A stretch of 16,836 nucleotides of DNA from Promethearchaeota archaeon Loki_b31 (GTDB taxonomy: Archaea > Asgardarchaeota > Lokiarchaeia > Sigyniarchaeales > SOKP01), in the NCBI GenBank assembly GCA_005222975.1, contig NJBI01000063.1:1-16836 (forward strand), read 5' to 3'. Of this stretch, positions 160-13,024 are shown one piece after another. The notes beneath the pieces are model-generated. The model had not been told where the DNA came from, did no database searches, and worked only from the letters and a program-made list of their open reading frames with translations. Positions within the stretch are counted from its first letter, which is position 1. Each line of letters starts with the position of its first letter. The translations under genes were made by a program, and so were the position numbers.

Positions 160-1173
160 ATGTCAAATATATTAGTGACTGGCGGTACGGGGTTTATAGG
201 TGTTCCATTAGTTAAGAAACTGCATCAACTAGGACATAACTTAAAACTTTTAGTAAGGGAGAGTAGTAACACAGCTCCTTTTAAGGAACTTAGTAACATT
301 AAATATGTTACTGGTGATGTTCAAGATATCAATAGTTTGGAAAAGGCTGTAGATAATATTGATATTATATATCATCTTGCAGCAACCACTCAGATTTGGG
401 CTAAAGATAAATCTATATATGAAGAAATAAATATTAAAGGTCCTGAAAACATTGCTGAAGTTGCATTAGAAAAAAATATTCTCTTAATTTTCATTAGCTC
501 ATTTTTTGCCATTGGACCTTATAATTGTGGTGAAGATATTCCTGATTTTGAAACTTATGAGAGAAACATTGACTATTTTATAGATTATGAAAAATCTAAA
601 TCTGAAGGAACAAAAAATATTCGAAAATATAAGGAAAAAGGATTAAAAACCATTATTTTTTATCCTGGCTTCGTTTACGGTCCAGGGGATCTCAATTTTT
701 ACGGGAAATTGACTATTGATATAATTTTAGGAAAACTTCTGGGAATACCTAAAACATCAGTTTCTAAATTTAGTATGGCTTATGTCTATGATATTATAGA
801 GCCTATGGCTAATGTGATTAGTAGAGATGACTTAATTGGTGAAGAATATTTTCTAGGTGGTGAAGCGGCAACAACAATTGAGTATCTTAACTTAATCGCA
901 GAATTTGCTGGAGTGAAAAAACCAAGACAATTTCCATTGTTGTTTGCCTTGTTTTATGGACGCTTATGTGAAATTAGAGCAAAACTTTCAAAAAATAGAA
1001 TTCCCTACATAACACGACCCTTAATGAAAATGGCAACATATGATTGGGCATACTCATCTCAGAAAACTATTGATGATCTGGGATATAAAATAACCCCTTT
1101 TAGAGAAGGTTTGGAGAAAACGGTTGAGTGGTATAAGGAATATATTGAAAAAGGAAAAAAGGAAGGAGTGTAA
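160..1173 (+). CDS. Extended SDR / NAD(P)-dependent epimerase-dehydratase family protein (HpnA / plant farnesol dehydrogenase-like subgroup)
   Basis: Rossmann motif TGGTGFIG a few residues after ATG 160 (MSNILVTG). The ORF-track start at 112 adds 16 residues that do not belong to the domain. YHLAA, catalytic Ser (ISSFFAIG), YxxxK (YEKSK), YPGFVYGPG and C-terminal WAYSS..LGY are present. Confidence 0.88.
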   Translation: MSNILVTGGTGFIGVPLVKKLHQLGHNLKLLVRESSNTAPFKELSNIKYVTGDVQDINSLEKAVDNIDIIYHLAATTQIWAKDKSIYEEINIKGPENIAEVALEKNILLIFISSFFAIGPYNCGEDIPDFETYERNIDYFIDYEKSKSEGTKNIRKYKEKGLKTIIFYPGFVYGPGDLNFYGKLTIDIILGKLLGIPKTSVSKFSMAYVYDIIEPMANVISRDDLIGEEYFLGGEAATTIEYLNLIAEFAGVKKPRQFPLLFALFYGRLCEIRAKLSKNRIPYITRPLMKMATYDWAYSSQKTIDDLGYKITPFREGLEKTVEWYKEYIEKGKKEGV

Positions 1174-7926: not shown

Positions 7927-8700
7927 ATGAGAGTAAAAGGATTGATATTTGATTTTGGTTTTACACTGTTTTCCTTTGAGAATCCGTCAATTGAAAAATA
8001 TTACGATTGCTTTAATCGTGGATTATTGAAATCACTTGATATTTTAAAACAAGAGAAAATTATAGAAGAAAAAGAAATAGATAATTTTATTAGAGTCTTC
8101 AACAGAAAAAGAAATACCTTTTTTAAATCGTCATTAAAAACGAAGGAAGAATTTCCAACTACACTATTATTCAAAAGCGTGTTAACTGCGTTAAAAGAAA
8201 GAGGTTATAATATTAAAGACGAGAATGTTAAAGAAGAGTTTATAGAAAATTTAGCTGAAATTTATCATTCTTGTGAAGAAGAAGAATGGAAACCCTATAA
8301 AGAAACGAGATATACCTTAGAATCACTATCTAAATCCTCGTATCTAAAAATAGGTCTTATTTCAAATCATCCAAACCATAAAACTATAAAAAATTTACTC
8401 AAAAATAATGAAATGAAGCATTATTTCGATGCGATCGTTACTTCTGCAAAATTTGGTAAAAGAAAACCCAATCCAGACATCTTTTTCCATACATTAAAGA
8501 AAATGGGATTAAATAAAGACGATGCAAAAGATTGTATGATGGTGGGTGACGAAGCTGCCGACGCTGTTGGTGCTTATAGGGCAGGCATGCAACTCATCTT
8601 AAAAGAAAGAGAATACGAATTTCCCTTTGAAACAGAAATCGATTTGCCAAATTTAATAAAAATAAAATCGATTAAAGAAGTATTAAACTACGTAGAATAG
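7927..8700 (+). CDS. HAD-superfamily hydrolase, subfamily IA (DxGxT variant)
   Basis: Motif I IFDFGFTL, motif II LISN, motif III RKPNPDIF, motif IV MVGDEAADAVGAYRAGM. Confidence 0.9.
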   Translation: MRVKGLIFDFGFTLFSFENPSIEKYYDCFNRGLLKSLDILKQEKIIEEKEIDNFIRVFNRKRNTFFKSSLKTKEEFPTTLLFKSVLTALKERGYNIKDENVKEEFIENLAEIYHSCEEEEWKPYKETRYTLESLSKSSYLKIGLISNHPNHKTIKNLLKNNEMKHYFDAIVTSAKFGKRKPNPDIFFHTLKKMGLNKDDAKDCMMVGDEAADAVGAYRAGMQLILKEREYEFPFETEIDLPNLIKIKSIKEVLNYVE

Positions 8701-8708
8701 ATATAAAG

Positions 8709-8811
8709 TAGCCCAGAGGGGAATTATTCCTTCTTAAAGAATTTTTGAGAAGATTGAACCCCTGATCACTTGCTTCGCAGGCAAGCGTCTTATCCACTCG
8801 ACTACTGGGCT
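8709..8811 (-). tRNA. tRNA-Arg(GCG) with a 30-nt intron in the T-loop (position 58/59); CCA not encoded
   Basis: Minus strand folds as: acceptor AGCCCAG/CTGGGCT + discriminator A; D-arm GTC/GAC with GG and A20 (Arg identity element); anticodon arm CTTGC-CTGCGAA-GCAAG (anticodon at 8778-8776); variable loop TGATC; T-stem AGGGG/CCCCT. Removing 8724..8753 gives T-loop TTCAATT and a 73-nt mature tRNA. Confidence 0.93.
8724..8753 (-). other. Archaeal tRNA intron with BHB splicing motif
   Basis: Central 4-bp helix GTTC/GAAT, two 3-nt AAT bulges on opposite strands, intron helix CTTCT/AGAAG, outer helix GGG/TCC. Cutting after the second nucleotide of each bulge releases exactly 30 nt. Confidence 0.88.
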
Positions 8812-8836
8812 AAGCTTTACTGCTTTTCCTATAATA

Positions 8837-8844
8837 ATTATAAA
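8837..8844 (-). promoter_or_regulatory. Putative TATA box of the tRNA gene
   Basis: TTTATAAT on the minus strand, 26-33 nt upstream of the mature tRNA 5' end. Confidence 0.5.
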
Positions 8845-8894
8845 CGTGAATAATACTTAAAATACTTTATTTCTCTATTATAATTTATTAAGAA

Positions 8895-9590
8895 ATGTTT
8901 AAAGATAAAAACATGTTTGAAAATTATTGCGTAATATTCGATATGGACGGTGTATTGGCGGATACTGGGCCTATCCACTATGAAAGTTGGGTAAAATTAG
9001 CCAAACAGATAGGAGTTAAATTTTCCAAAAGATTTTTTAACCTCACTTTTGGTCAGCAATCTATTTCAATTACTCGGGAATTAGTAGGTCCAAAGATCAA
9101 ACAAGAAGTTGTTGAAAAATGGGCAAACCTTAAGGAACGGTATTATCGAGAGATGGTTAAAGATGGGTTAAAACCCTTGCCAGGGGCGCTGGTTTTAATA
9201 AAAGTTCTTCACGCTCGTAATTTTAAATTAGCCGTTGGCTCAAGTGGACCACCTGAAAATGTAGATCTATTATTGTCAACATTAAGTATAAAAAATTACT
9301 TTGATGTAATCATAACAGCAGCAGAAGTAAAAAATGGGAAGCCGGCACCCGATGTATTTTTAATAGCCGCTGAAAAATTAAATATTAAAGTAGATAATTG
9401 CCTTGTAATTGAAGACGCCCCTGTTGGCATAACTGCCGCACGGAAGGCAGGAATGAGCGTTATCGCTTTAAGAACAACACATTGTAACGTAGATCTTTTA
9501 GATGCAGATATGGTTGTTCAAGATTTAAGCTACATTAACATAAACGATATTTTGAAATTGTTAGATATTAATAAGAATAATCAACCATGA
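8895..9590 (+). CDS. HAD-superfamily phosphatase, beta-phosphoglucomutase/CbbY-like (subfamily IA variant 3)
   Basis: IFDMDGVLADT, AVGSS, GKPAPDVF, VIEDAPVGITAARKAGM. An alternative start exists at ATG 8913. Confidence 0.92.
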   Translation: MFKDKNMFENYCVIFDMDGVLADTGPIHYESWVKLAKQIGVKFSKRFFNLTFGQQSISITRELVGPKIKQEVVEKWANLKERYYREMVKDGLKPLPGALVLIKVLHARNFKLAVGSSGPPENVDLLLSTLSIKNYFDVIITAAEVKNGKPAPDVFLIAAEKLNIKVDNCLVIEDAPVGITAARKAGMSVIALRTTHCNVDLLDADMVVQDLSYININDILKLLDINKNNQP

Positions 9591-11099: not shown

Positions 11100-11263
11100 T
11101 TTCGAACACCAGAAATTCTCTTATTTATTATTTACTCCGATTTATTTATTTGCTAATATTCTCTTAATAAAGATTTATTTTTTTTGATAAGCTTTATTAT
11201 TAATACTCAAATAGCTTTAAATTTAGAATTGAAAATAACGATCTTTAATGCGTGATTTTTGTA

Positions 11264-13024
11264 ATGGATATTGATGAAATAAAAAAGTTATTATGGGTTT
11301 TTGGTCTTACAAATGCGGTGAAATTCGGGGGAAAACCGAATGTAAAGGCAATTATGGGTAAAATAATGAGCCAAAAGCCTGAATTAAGATCTCAAATTAA
11401 ACTGATTAAACCTTTATTAGATGAAACGATTATCGAAATTACTAAAATAACTTTAGAAGTACAAAAAGAGAAATTACTTGAATTGGATCCATCTGCTTTA
11501 GAGAAAAAAGAAACTAAGAAAGAGAAAAAAGAATTGCCAGAGTTACTAAATACGCAAAATTACGATAAAATCGTAATGCGTTTAGCACCATATCCAAGTG
11601 GTGCTTTACATATTGGAAATGCGAGAATGATAGTTCTAAACAGCGCATATATCAAGCGGTATAACGGGAAATTAATCTTATTCTTTGATGATACAATAGG
11701 GAGTCCAAAATCTTTGAGAGATAGCCCTAAAGCAAAATATGTGCTTCCTGAAGCTTACGACTTGATAAAAGATGGTTTAAAGTGGTTGGGGATTGATTAT
11801 TCTAAAATATATTACAAGAGTGATAGGTTAGAACTTTACTACGAATATTGTGAGAAACTAATTCAGGATAATATGGCATATGTATGTTTTTGTAGTGCAA
11901 ATGAGTTTAGGGAGAAATATAAAAAACAGAAAAAAAATTGTCCTCATAGAGATCAATCAATAGATATAAACTTAGAAGAATGGAACAACATGATTAAAAG
12001 TAAGTACCATGAAACAGAAGTTGTAGTTAGATTAAAAACGGGAATGGCCCAAAAAGATCCTGCAATAAGAGACCAAATAATTATGAGAATTTCTGAAGCG
12101 AATCACCCACTGGTTGGAAATAAATACATTGTTTGGCCAATGTTAGAATTTTCCTGGGCAATCGACGACCATTTAATAGGCGCTACACATATCTTAAGAG
12201 GCGCAGATTTGGTAAAAGAAGATATAATCGAAGCATTTATCTGGGAGCATTTTAACTGGAAAAAAGCGGAATTCTTGCATTACGGTAGAATTAAGTTTCC
12301 AAATATGAATTTAAGTAAAACTCAATCAAGAAATAACATATTAAGTGGTAAATACGAAGGATGGAACGACCCTAGGACTTGGAGCTTGCAATCGCTTAAA
12401 ATGCGAGGGATTAGACCAGAAGCTTTGAAAGAAACGCTTTTAGACCTTGGAATGTCAATTACTGGGATTACTTTTGATGAATCATGGCTTTATTCTAAAA
12501 ATAAGGATATAATTGATGAAGTTTCAGATAGGTATTTCTATGTAGAAGACCCTATTACAATTGAAATCGAAAACGTTCCTTTTTCAAAACACACGGCTGA
12601 ACCATTAGTACTACCGTCAAATCCTAAAAAAGGAAAAAGAAAAATAAATGTTAAAGCAAAAGAAGGTAAATTGAAAGTATTCGTTGCTAAATCAGATGCT
12701 TATAAATTTAAAATAGATCAAAATGTACGGTTAAAAGACCTAATCAACATTAAATTAACCTATATTGATGTAGAGAACCATAAAATAAATGCTCAGTTCC
12801 ATAGTTACGAATTAAACAGAGAATATTCAATTATTCAATGGGTATGTGAAGAAGAAAATGTGAAAGTTTCAATTCTAAAACCTGATGGGACTATTTCTAA
12901 GGGAAATGGAGAGCTTAACCTTGTAAACATTCCTATGAATAAAACGATACAATTCGAGAGATTTGGATTTGTAAATCCAATTAAATGGGAAAAAGACACA
13001 TTAGAATGTTATTTTACCCATTAA
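11264..13024 (+). CDS. gltX: Glutamate--tRNA ligase, archaeal type
   Basis: Archaeal N-terminal domain (NAVKFGGKPNVKAIMGKIM), RLAPYPSGALHIGN (HIGH), YVCFC..CPHR, IDDHLIGATHILRGAD, LSKT (KMSKS), GWNDPR and QFERFGF. ATG 11264 is preferred over GTG 11252, which looks like part of the SD (GTGA). Confidence 0.96.
   Translation: MDIDEIKKLLWVFGLTNAVKFGGKPNVKAIMGKIMSQKPELRSQIKLIKPLLDETIIEITKITLEVQKEKLLELDPSALEKKETKKEKKELPELLNTQNYDKIVMRLAPYPSGALHIGNARMIVLNSAYIKRYNGKLILFFDDTIGSPKSLRDSPKAKYVLPEAYDLIKDGLKWLGIDYSKIYYKSDRLELYYEYCEKLIQDNMAYVCFCSANEFREKYKKQKKNCPHRDQSIDINLEEWNNMIKSKYHETEVVVRLKTGMAQKDPAIRDQIIMRISEANHPLVGNKYIVWPMLEFSWAIDDHLIGATHILRGADLVKEDIIEAFIWEHFNWKKAEFLHYGRIKFPNMNLSKTQSRNNILSGKYEGWNDPRTWSLQSLKMRGIRPEALKETLLDLGMSITGITFDESWLYSKNKDIIDEVSDRYFYVEDPITIEIENVPFSKHTAEPLVLPSNPKKGKRKINVKAKEGKLKVFVAKSDAYKFKIDQNVRLKDLINIKLTYIDVENHKINAQFHSYELNREYSIIQWVCEEENVKVSILKPDGTISKGNGELNLVNIPMNKTIQFERFGFVNPIKWEKDTLECYFTH

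What the first reader, a model, noticed from the sequence alone, without database searches (positions are those of the whole stretch)
8709..8811. Hidden tRNA-Arg(GCG) with a non-canonical T-loop intron (58/59) and a strict BHB motif
Seen: a complete cloverleaf whose T-loop is interrupted by 30 nt forming a textbook helix-bulge-helix-bulge-helix (GTTC/GAAT flanked by two AAT bulges). Established: most archaeal tRNA introns sit at 37/38. T-loop introns are best known from Thermoproteales-type crenarchaea and are often missed or called pseudogenes by standard scans. In an Asgard-like genome this bears on splicing endonuclease specificity and on the origin of the eukaryotic 37/38-only system. The T-stem must shift register by one base to form the BHB. 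The intron also interrupts the 3' half that integrases often use as an attachment site.
Basis: partly seen in the sequence, partly recalled or inferred. Interest (0 to 1): 0.72.

Follow-up and report, generated by a model that had tools for sequence, protein, structure and literature searches.

The report
Asgard tRNA-Arg gene with T-loop intron
This is a genuine arginine tRNA gene of a Loki-type Asgard archaeon, split in its T-loop by a 30-base intron that the tRNA-splicing enzymes very probably remove; such introns are common in this lineage and already described for Asgard archaea.

Summary
Window 8811..8709 (minus strand) is a tRNA-Arg(GCG) gene with a 30-nt insert (8753..8724) between T-loop positions 58 and 59. 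Cutting the insert out in silico gives a tRNA-Arg(gcg) that ARAGORN accepts. The uncut gene is missed by ARAGORN and only partly matched by Rfam.

The genome is a Promethearchaeota (Loki-type Asgard) MAG. The insert can form a 3-4-3 bulge-helix-bulge. That pair is G·A in 5 of 16 relatives, and the slipped fold is about 5 kcal/mol weaker than the native T-stem. "Strict" is therefore only partly right.

The same insert sits in 31 Arg(GCG) genes (29 distinct insert versions) from 5 genera of the family, with compensatory changes in the intron hairpin. No second Arg(GCG) gene was found in this genome or in near-complete close relatives. A two-subunit EndA carrying the broad-specificity loop lysine, and RtcB, are present. 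No spliced RNA was seen.

The kind is in print for Asgard archaea (PMC5829648, PMC11291895, bioRxiv 10.64898/2026.10.13.758758). Earlier notes of this scan report tRNA-type mini-introns in mRNAs of this and other genomes. None shown to me concerns this tRNA.

The parts
8709..8811 (-). Pre-tRNA-Arg(GCG) gene, 103 nt: acceptor stem A1-U72 type, discriminator A at 8709, no encoded CCA
   Evidence: sequence; Rfam RF00005, 36.8 bits, model 7-64; ARAGORN tRNA-Arg(gcg) after in-silico removal of the insert
8754..8811 (-). 5' exon, tRNA positions 1-58 (acceptor 5' strand, D-arm, anticodon arm, variable loop, T-stem 5' strand, T-loop U54-A58)
8776..8778 (-). Anticodon GCG (positions 34-36), reads CGU/CGC
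   Evidence: CGT is 3.6 and CGC 2.6 per 1000 codons in long ORFs of the genome
8724..8753 (-). 30-nt intron between T-loop positions 58 and 59
   Evidence: BHB scan plus ARAGORN; conserved position, variable loop and bulges, compensatory stem changes
8709..8723 (-). 3' exon, positions 59-73 (U59, U60, T-stem 3' strand, acceptor 3' strand, discriminator)
8756..8759 (-). Central BHB helix, exon strand: G53 U54 U55 C56
   Evidence: U54-A, U55-A/G and C56-G paired in 16 of 16; G53 pair is GU 8, GC 3, unpaired 5 of 16
8726..8729 (-). Central BHB helix, intron strand: GAAU (intron nt 25-28)
8753..8755 (-). 5' bulge A57 A58 U; predicted cut after A58
   Evidence: Geometry. The cleavage rule (after the 2nd bulge nucleotide) is recalled knowledge of archaeal EndA, not tested here
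8723..8725 (-). 3' bulge A A U59; predicted cut before U59
   Evidence: As above. Bulge letters vary among relatives
8748..8752 (-). Intron hairpin helix, 5' strand (CUUCU)
   Evidence: 3 of 5 pairs change on both sides in 16 orthologues; 4 of 5 pairs in 30 further genes
8730..8734 (-). Intron hairpin helix, 3' strand (AGAAG)
8760..8762 (-). Outer BHB helix, 5' strand (G50-G52), pairing one base out of the mature T-stem register
   Evidence: The pairs never vary, so the register itself is not proven
8720..8722 (-). Outer BHB helix, 3' strand (U60 C61 C62)
8837..8844 (-). A/T-rich TATA-like box, 26-33 nt upstream of position 1 (inferred promoter)
   Evidence: Sequence only. A similar A/T-rich box lies upstream in relatives. 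Not tested
7927..8700 (+). Flanking HAD-family hydrolase gene. In relative G241 a 4.9-kb block lies between this gene and the tRNA
8895..9590 (+). Flanking HAD-family hydrolase gene (context, conserved neighbour)
11252..13024 (+). Glutamyl-tRNA synthetase gene. Used to name the lineage; it has the tRNA upstream in 13 of 27 related loci

Best explanation
The locus is the working, and apparently only, tRNA-Arg(GCG) gene of this Loki-type Asgard archaeon.

Proposed pathway:
1. The gene is transcribed as a 103-nt precursor.
2. The conserved T-loop letters G53-U54-U55-C56 pair with GAAU near the 3' end of a 30-nt intron. Together with the intron's own hairpin and a short exon helix, this forms a bulge-helix-bulge.
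3. The heterotetrameric (alpha-beta)2 splicing endonuclease cuts in the two 3-nt bulges, after A58 and before U59. Its catalytic subunit carries the broad-specificity loop.
4. RtcB joins the exons. This restores a normal 7-nt T-loop and the G53-C61 T-stem.
5. CCA is then added.

Shown here: the gene, the motif, its conservation and covariation, the lack of another Arg(GCG) gene, and the presence of the enzymes. Inferred: the cuts, the ligation and the exact conformer that the enzyme sees.

The intron is one of a family-wide set of T-loop introns. Within the family it is present in some genomes and absent in others.
For: 1. Removing 8753..8724 gives a tRNA-Arg(gcg) that ARAGORN accepts. Rfam matches the uninterrupted part above its gathering score.

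2. Conservation. Sixteen distinct orthologues were aligned and 15 more Arg(GCG) genes were found with the covariance model. They come from genera g1, g6, g8, g11 and g12 of the family. All carry a 30-36-nt insert at the same T-loop place; in 44 of the 46 genes aligned it is 30 or 31 nt. The tRNA positions flanking the insert are conserved, while the insert's loop and bulges vary.

3. Covariation. The intron hairpin has changes on both sides in 3 of 5 pairs and in 4 of 5 pairs. Cells paired are 95.5% and 93.9%, against 37-54% when the 3' partners are slid. In both alignments 0 of 500 shuffles reach the observed covariation score.

4. Sole copy. Four searches of the own genome find no other Arg(GCG) gene: blastn-short with the precursor and the spliced form, an anticodon-arm search (only C36 of 7 hits is tRNA-like), ARAGORN and model R1. 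CGT and CGC codons are in use. Close relatives rated about 97-100% complete carry the intron gene (G233, G235, G240, G241, G247, G248, G249). None has a match to the intron-less type.

5. Enzymes. There are two EndA paralogues of 200 and 201 aa.
   - The first is most like the A. pernix catalytic subunit (3P1Z_B, E 2.8e-34). It keeps Tyr, His and Lys, and it has a lysine (K58) aligned to K44 of the Crenarchaea-specific loop (K44 named in PMC5829648).
   - The second has Ser in place of the catalytic His.
   - RtcB is present.

6. In a relative's inserted block, the block-borne copy of the 3' part differs from the host copy only at two intron positions, one in the loop and one in the bulge.
Against: No RNA evidence. 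The four RNA or possibly RNA runs laid on the locus gave only contigs of related strains and no joint across the insert. One RNA contig runs from the 5' exon into the intron, which means unspliced RNA or DNA carry-over.

The assembly is 92% complete with 6% contamination, so a second gene on missing DNA cannot be ruled out.

The BHB fold is not the most stable one. The slipped BHB scores -13.1 kcal/mol, against -18.6 for the native T-stem plus intron hairpin. The minimum-free-energy fold lacks the central helix.

The G53 pair is broken (G·A) in 5 of 16 orthologues and in 6 of 29 cells of the wider set.

The outer helix never varies, so nothing proves the slip.

Intron-less Arg(GCG) genes exist elsewhere in the family, even in the same genus (G266). 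G225 has both types 2.3 kb apart. The intron is therefore dispensable as such.
Confidence: 0.9

Rival explanations
1. The intron and outcome are the same, but the enzyme sees a relaxed motif rather than the strict 3-4-3 BHB. The T-stem stays in its native five-pair register. Only U54-U55-C56 pair with GAA. The 5' site lies in a normal 3-nt bulge and the 3' site in a 5-nt bulge. Cleavage then depends on the broad-specificity loop of the catalytic subunit.
For: This fold is 4.6 kcal/mol more stable than the slipped BHB (-17.7 against -13.1). The intron letter opposite G53 varies freely: U 8, C 3, A 5 of 16. The outer-helix pairs are invariant in both registers. The catalytic EndA subunit has the loop lysine that papers tie to relaxed substrates.
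Against: The strict geometry places both cuts exactly where a 7-nt T-loop is restored. In the wider set G53 pairs with C or U in 23 of 29 cells. tRNAs with G57 use the neighbouring register UUCG/CGAA with a full 4-bp helix, which suggests that four pairs are selected for.
Confidence: 0.35
2. The locus is a disrupted tRNA pseudogene. The 30-nt insert is not removed, and arginine CGU/CGC codons are read by a gene missing from the assembly.
For: No spliced RNA was seen. The assembly is 92% complete. Intron-less Arg(GCG) genes occur in other members of the family.
Against: The tRNA positions are conserved across five genera, while the intron loop and bulges vary and the stems covary. Relatives rated about 100% complete have only this type. 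At least nine other tRNA genes of the genome have an insert in the same T-loop place. They cannot all be pseudogenes when only 22 Rfam tRNA matches exist.
Confidence: 0.04
3. The insert is kept in the mature RNA as an enlarged T-loop, or is a scar of a mobile-element attachment site rather than an intron.
For: In relative G241 a 4.9-kb block is flanked by a 62-nt repeat that covers the insert. Mobile DNA has therefore used this stretch.
Against: The window has no such block and no repeat. The insert has a conserved BHB with covariation. It sits between U54-A58 and the T-stem, where an extra hairpin would break the T-loop that all tRNAs need (established tRNA structure; not tested here).
Confidence: 0.02

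Closest known systems
Non-canonical bulge-helix-bulge tRNA introns of Crenarchaeota, especially Thermoproteales, including T-arm positions 53/54, 56/57 and 59/60 (Yoshihisa 2014, PMC4090602, passages read; Fujishima & Kanai 2014, PMC4033280, passages read)
   Same: A short protein-spliced intron outside the anticodon loop. It is defined by a transplantable BHB at the exon-intron borders. It often occurs together with other introns in the same gene. Similar introns occur in different isoacceptors.
   Different: The host is an Asgard (Promethearchaeota) genome, not a crenarchaeon. The position here is 58/59, one base from the listed 59/60. It uses the register GUUC/GAAY, which borrows G53 from the T-stem.
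[quoted passage not shown] 2026 preprint, 10.64898/2026.10.13.758758, abstract and passages)
   Same: Asgard tRNA genes with introns at non-canonical positions and multiple introns per gene. Called introns concentrate at 37/38 and in the T-arm. T-arm inserts mostly form canonical BHB motifs. Gains are repeated and lineage-specific. This matches the presence/absence pattern seen here.
   Different: Those papers centre on Atabeyarchaeia, Freyarchaeia and Jordiarchaeia. The preprint's main text never uses a Loki-type name (0 hits for 'lokiarchae' and 'promethearchae'). Its per-gene tables are in supplements that I could not open, so I cannot say whether this gene family is listed.
Aeropyrum pernix (alpha-beta)2 splicing endonuclease with the Crenarchaea-specific loop, L1 (PDB 3P1Z/3AJV; Kaneta 2018, PMC5829648, passages)
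   Same: Two paralogous subunits of about 200 aa. One keeps the Tyr/His/Lys triad and a lysine aligned to K44 of the loop. The other lacks the catalytic His. The paper already states that Asgard archaea have this type with L1.
   Different: Nothing beyond sequence divergence. Activity on this substrate is not tested.

Membership tests
tRNA (Rfam RF00005), isoacceptor Arg(GCG) | Cloverleaf match above the family's gathering score | tested here: met
   36.8 bits against 29, but only model positions 7-64, because the insert breaks the T-arm
tRNA (Rfam RF00005), isoacceptor Arg(GCG) | Complete cloverleaf with a 7-nt anticodon loop and a 7-nt T-loop once the insert is removed | tested here: met
   ARAGORN calls tRNA-Arg(gcg) on the in-silico spliced sequence
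Archaeal EndA-dependent (BHB) tRNA intron | Two 3-nt bulges on opposite strands separated by a 4-bp helix and flanked by helices (hBHBh') | tested here: met
   The window sequence passes the 3-4-3 scan. It does so with a G·U closing pair and an outer helix of 3 bp out of the T-stem register
Archaeal EndA-dependent (BHB) tRNA intron | Helices kept by compensatory change in relatives | tested here: met
   Intron helix: 3 of 5 pairs and 4 of 5 pairs change on both sides. Central helix: one-sided changes only. Outer helix: invariant, so uninformative
Archaeal EndA-dependent (BHB) tRNA intron | Splicing endonuclease able to cut outside the anticodon loop encoded in the genome | tested here: met
   Alpha-like (C13) and beta-like (C79) EndA genes; loop lysine aligned to A. 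pernix K44
Archaeal EndA-dependent (BHB) tRNA intron | RNA ligase RtcB encoded in the genome | tested here: met
   C84:38695-40002, 562 bits to PF01139
Archaeal EndA-dependent (BHB) tRNA intron | Spliced product, or circular intron, observed in RNA | tested here: inconclusive
   Four runs were laid. They gave contigs only and no joint. One RNA contig enters the intron
Strict (canonical) BHB as opposed to relaxed BHB | All four central pairs are standard, and the motif is the favoured fold | tested here: inconclusive
   The G53 pair is G·U here, G-C in 3 and G·A in 5 of 16 relatives. The slipped BHB is -13.1 kcal/mol against -18.6 for the native T-stem fold
tRNA gene used as an integration site | Direct repeat of the tRNA 3' part flanking foreign DNA | tested here: not met
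   There is none in the window: no second copy of any part of the gene in the genome. It is met in relative G241

The most novel reading that the evidence does not exclude
The T-loop introns of this Asgard family may be one portable cassette.

The cassette would be a roughly 30-nt hairpin that brings only GAAY (or CGAA) and borrows the universally conserved GUUC(R) of any tRNA's T-loop as the other strand of its BHB. That would let it copy itself into many isoacceptors. It may share origin and spread with the roughly 30-nt tRNA-type introns that earlier notes of this scan report in mRNAs of the same genome.

Hints:
- At least nine other tRNA genes of this genome carry an insert in the same T-loop place.
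- The register follows position 57. UUCAA loops use 58/59 and UUCGA loops use 59/60 (G233 and L086 are exceptions).
- A loop motif chosen after seeing the data (AAA, 1-4 letters, TCTT) occurs in 21 of 29 Arg(GCG) introns and in 5 of 15 introns of other isoacceptors. It occurs in 2.8% of random 31-mers.

Against:
- The motif was chosen post hoc and the sequences are kin.
- The own-genome Lys, Met and Val introns do not show it.
- The 2026 preprint reports no general route of copying between tRNA genes (abstract).
Probability: 0.2. Interest if true: 0.55.

Novelty: new member of a known kind. Interest (0 to 1): 0.3.

Why it matters
This gene carries the only anticodon found in the genome for CGU and CGC codons, so an annotation that misses it leaves the tRNA set incomplete.

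The genome shows only 22 Rfam tRNA matches. Much of the missing set turns out to be genes with T-loop and other non-canonical introns. This is a practical warning for annotating Loki-type Asgard MAGs.

Biologically it adds a Loki-type example to the published picture. Asgard archaea have a crenarchaeal-style splicing endonuclease that does not depend on intron position, and their introns are gained and lost repeatedly. That differs from the position-measuring eukaryotic enzyme. This locus does not change the picture.

Tried and rejected
1. RNA evidence. Of 24 runs listed, I laid the four RNA or possibly RNA ones. They are Logan contigs of related strains. There is no joint over the insert and no cover of 8688-8711 in any run. 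This says nothing for or against splicing.

2. Genome-wide length histogram of strong BHB candidates (5,686 candidates with outer helix of at least 4 bp and intron helix of at least 5 bp). It is flat at about 50 per length, with no peak near 30 nt. Chance matches in this 31.5% G+C genome swamp any true class.

3. ARAGORN with its intron option on the whole genome. It allows introns only in the anticodon loop. It gave 23 calls, several with odd assignments (SeC, Pyl, a 4-letter anticodon), and I did not trust those.

4. A 59/60 register for this gene. The letters needed for a 4-bp helix are not there (reasoned from the sequence). The 59/60 register does hold for the Lys and initiator Met genes of the genome.

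5. An integrase next to the tRNA. None is in the window. None was recognised in the G241 block either.

6. The isoacceptor of the own-genome gene at C2:23023-23124 could not be settled by eye.

7. The loop-motif count was made after seeing the data. It is a lead only.

8. tRNAscan-SE and SPLITS are not on hand, so I did not test whether the standard archaeal annotator calls this gene. Supplements of the 2024 paper and the 2026 preprint are closed; they may list this gene family.
Full report
WHAT IS THERE.

The finding lies on the minus strand. Read from 8811 down to 8709, the sequence gives:
- a 7-bp acceptor stem of the A1-U72 type;
- a D-arm;
- an anticodon arm with the loop CUGCGAA (anticodon GCG at 8778..8776);
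- a 5-nt variable loop;
- the T-stem 5' strand and UUCAA;
- then 30 letters (8753..8724);
- then UU, the T-stem 3' strand, the acceptor 3' strand and a discriminator A.

No CCA is encoded. Rfam's tRNA model matches 8805..8747 at 36.8 bits (gathering score 29), but only over model positions 7-64. ARAGORN does not call the gene. Its only call in the window is a doubtful tRNA with a four-letter anticodon at 244-339, inside an epimerase-family reading frame.

TEST OF THE MOTIF.

I scanned both strands of the whole 3.52-Mb assembly for the 3-4-3 bulge-helix-bulge geometry. The window is all of contig C36 of that assembly. The scan gave 206,493 candidates. I cut each candidate out and ran ARAGORN on the joined sequences.

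Twelve junction-spanning tRNA calls came back. One is tRNA-Arg(gcg) at C36:8708-8811, with the junction after nucleotide 58 and a 30-nt insert.

- G53-C56 pairs with GAAU of the intron.
- Each strand of that helix is followed by an AAU bulge.
- A CUUCU/AGAAG intron helix follows.
- The outer helix is G52·U60, G51-C61, G50-C62. This is the T-stem slipped by one base.

The usual archaeal cleavage rule (recalled, not tested here) puts each cut after the second bulge letter. Under that rule the exons join to give a normal 7-nt T-loop and the G53-C61 stem.

The motif is not the most stable fold. The slipped BHB evaluates at -13.1 kcal/mol. The native T-stem plus intron hairpin gives -18.6, and adding the three UUC/GAA pairs gives -17.7. 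The minimum-free-energy fold of the whole strand keeps the native T-stem (z = -3.0 against shuffles).

WHOSE GENOME.

The glutamyl-tRNA synthetase gene at 11252-13024 has relatives at 65-95% identity. All but one of the records that name a taxon are Promethearchaeota (Asgard) MAGs or carry another Asgard name; one is labelled as a bacterium, and two are 'uncultured archaeon'. The assembly has 31.5% G+C, 99 contigs, 92% completeness and 6% contamination.

CONSERVATION.

The same gene sits upstream of GluRS in 13 of the 27 related loci. A BLAST survey of 400 genomes of the phylum and a covariance-model survey of the 135 genomes of the family brought in more copies.

In all I saw 31 Arg(GCG) genes with an insert at this T-loop place: 16 in alignment A1 and 15 in A2. 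They hold 29 distinct insert sequences and come from genera g1, g6, g8, g11 and g12.

The tRNA positions beside the insert are kept. The insert's hairpin loop and bulge letters vary.

| Measure | A1, 16 orthologues | A2, 30 genes of several isoacceptors |
|---|---|---|
| Intron-helix pairs changed on both sides | 3 of 5 | 4 of 5 |
| Cells paired | 95.5% | 93.9% |
| Cells paired with 3' partners slid | 37-54% | 32-53% |
| Shuffles reaching the covariation score | 0 of 500 | 0 of 500 |

A2 was fitted to the model's structure, so it leans towards it.

The pair made by G53 is G·U in 8, G-C in 3 and G·A in 5 of the 16 orthologues. In the wider set it is G-C 14, G·U 9 and unpaired 6 of 29. The outer helix never varies, so the slip is possible but unproven.

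Some relatives carry further introns in the same gene. G179, G233, G258, G171 and G159 have one at 37/38. G252, G170, G175, G173, G164 and G159 have one in the D-arm.

THE REFUTATION TEST.

In the own genome I found none by four routes:
- ARAGORN;
- blastn-short with the precursor and the spliced form;
- an anticodon-arm search, in which only C36 of 7 hits lies in a tRNA-like context;
- the covariance model, in which 7 hits include no second Arg(GCG).

CGT and CGC make up 3.6 and 2.6 per 1000 codons of long reading frames, so the anticodon is needed.

The family does hold intron-less Arg(GCG) genes. Nine of ten 75-nt model hits that I fetched are such genes. They have G1-C72 acceptor stems. 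One comes from the same genus (G266). G225 has both types 2.3 kb apart.

The window's clade shows no match to that type. This clade includes genomes rated about 97-100% complete (G233, G235, G240, G241, G247, G248, G249). There the intron-bearing gene stands alone.

Three other Asgard loci (family f31) have an uninterrupted Arg(GCG) gene with encoded CCA. The intron is thus lineage-specific, kept where it is the only copy, and absent elsewhere. This fits repeated gain and loss.

THE MACHINERY.

The genome encodes two EndA paralogues, each with the N- and C-terminal Pfam domains.
- The 200-aa protein on C13 is closest to the catalytic alpha subunit of Aeropyrum pernix EndA (3P1Z_B, E 2.8e-34). 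It keeps the Tyr, His and Lys. It aligns without gaps through the Crenarchaea-specific loop, with its K58 opposite K44. K44 is named as the key loop residue in PMC5829648.
- The 201-aa protein on C79 has Ser where the catalytic His stands. It looks like a structural beta subunit.
- RtcB is present.

This is the (alpha-beta)2 type with loop L1 that Kaneta et al. 2018 already reported for Asgard archaea.

CONTEXT IN THE GENOME.

Only 22 Rfam tRNA matches exist, five of them partial. Many of the missing genes carry non-canonical introns. T-loop inserts occur in:
- Lys(UUU), C84:25935-26039;
- Lys(CUU), C94:30066-30170;
- initiator Met, C55:286-394;
- Tyr, C34:221-373;
- Arg(CCU), C83:26025-26147;
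- Val(UAC), C94:25887-25989;
- a Val-like gene, C75:65078-65211;
- an unresolved gene, C2:23023-23124.

Arg(UCG) has an insert before the T-stem.

Across these genes a rule appears. T-loops reading UUCAA use the helix GUUC/GAAY, with the intron at 58/59. T-loops reading UUCGA use UUCG/CGAA, with the intron at 59/60 and the T-stem left in register. G233 and L086 are exceptions. This explains why this gene needs the slip.

RNA DATA.

I laid four RNA or possibly RNA runs on 8400-9100. They gave contigs of related strains and no joint. One RNA contig runs from the 5' exon into the intron. This neither supports nor refutes splicing.

WHAT IS KNOWN.

- Non-canonical BHB introns, including 53/54, 56/57 and 59/60, are reviewed for Crenarchaeota and Nanoarchaeota (PMC4090602, passages).
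- Intron transposition between isoacceptors is reported for Thermoproteales (PMC4033280, passages).
- For Asgard archaea, Valentin-Alvarado et al. 2024 report 92-95% intron-bearing tRNA genes, often at non-canonical positions (PMC11291895, passages).
- A 2026 preprint reports that called introns concentrate at 37/38 and in the T-arm, sit at canonical BHB motifs and were gained repeatedly (10.64898/2026.10.13.758758, abstract and passages).
- That preprint's main text does not name Loki-type lineages. Its tables are in supplements that I could not read.

I therefore file this as a new member of a known kind.

EARLIER NOTES OF THIS SCAN.

Earlier notes report roughly 30-nt tRNA-type introns in protein-coding genes of this and other Loki-type genomes. 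None shown to me concerns this tRNA. They are unchecked here. My one attempt to see such a class in a length histogram gave nothing.

SIDE OBSERVATION ON INTEGRATION.

In relative G241 (locus L024), the two HAD genes that flank the tRNA in the window are separated by an extra 4.9 kb. The block lies between the full tRNA gene (L024:6126-6228) and a 62-nt copy of precursor positions 42-103, intron included (L024:1143-1204). That copy is identical to the window's sequence and is followed by the window's flank.

The block encodes a 1167-aa fusion of a DEDDh exonuclease and a reverse transcriptase, similar to defence-associated RTs. No integrase was recognised. The intron-bearing 3' part has therefore served as an insertion target, and the block brought its own intron-bearing copy.

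VERDICT.

The reading is supported, with "strict" softened. The mechanism is very probably ordinary archaeal tRNA splicing at an unusual but documented place. Interest is modest.

Noticed in passing
L024:1143-6228 (relative G241, contig JAHLWS010000052.1); the empty site in the window is 8700-8811: A 4.9-kb block lies next to the tRNA's 3' end in a relative. It is flanked by the full tRNA gene and by a 62-nt repeat of precursor positions 42-103 that includes the intron. It carries a 1167-aa DEDDh-exonuclease/reverse-transcriptase fusion (DRT-like by PADLOC), a 259-aa ORF and a 71-aa ORF. No integrase was recognised.
   Followed up: partly
Own genome: C84:25935-26039(-), C94:30066-30170(+), C55:286-394(-), C34:221-373(+), C83:26025-26147(+), C94:25887-25989(-), C75:65078-65211(+), C2:23023-23124(+): At least eight further tRNA genes of this genome carry a roughly 30-nt insert in the T-loop: Lys UUU, Lys CUU, initiator Met, Tyr, Arg CCU, Val UAC, a Val-like gene and one unresolved gene. 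UUCGA loops use the register UUCG/CGAA (59/60). UUCAA loops use GUUC/GAAY (58/59).
   Followed up: partly
Relatives G225:C26:19043-19117 and G225:C26:21424-21526; G266:C17:13240-13314: The family holds two kinds of Arg(GCG) gene. The A1-U72 kind carried the T-loop insert in every copy I saw. The G1-C72 kind is often uninterrupted. One genome has both kinds 2.3 kb apart, and a genome of the same genus as the window has only the uninterrupted kind.
   Followed up: partly
Relatives: e.g. L010:1587-1725 (G252), L079 (G159), L076 (G170): Orthologues of this gene carry up to three introns (D-arm, 37/38 and T-loop). The window's copy has only the T-loop one. The 37/38 and D-arm introns come and go among the copies that carry the T-loop intron.
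   Followed up: partly
window 244-339 (+): ARAGORN calls a tRNA with a four-letter anticodon (ttta) inside the epimerase-family reading frame 112-1173. It has no Rfam match and is very probably a false positive.
   Followed up: partly
T-loop introns of relatives (alignments A1, A2): Many T-loop introns of different isoacceptors share a hairpin-loop motif (a run of A, 1-4 letters, then TCTT). It occurs in 21 of 29 Arg(GCG) introns, 5 of 15 others and 2.8% of random 31-mers. The motif was chosen after looking at the data.
   Followed up: partly
Own genome C52:9361-9464 (+): tRNA-Arg(UCG) has an insert of about 28 nt between the variable loop and the T-stem. ARAGORN miscalls it as Pro(cgg) with a 6-nt intron. 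In family f21 (L054, L055, L058) Arg(UCG) instead has a T-loop insert.
   Followed up: no
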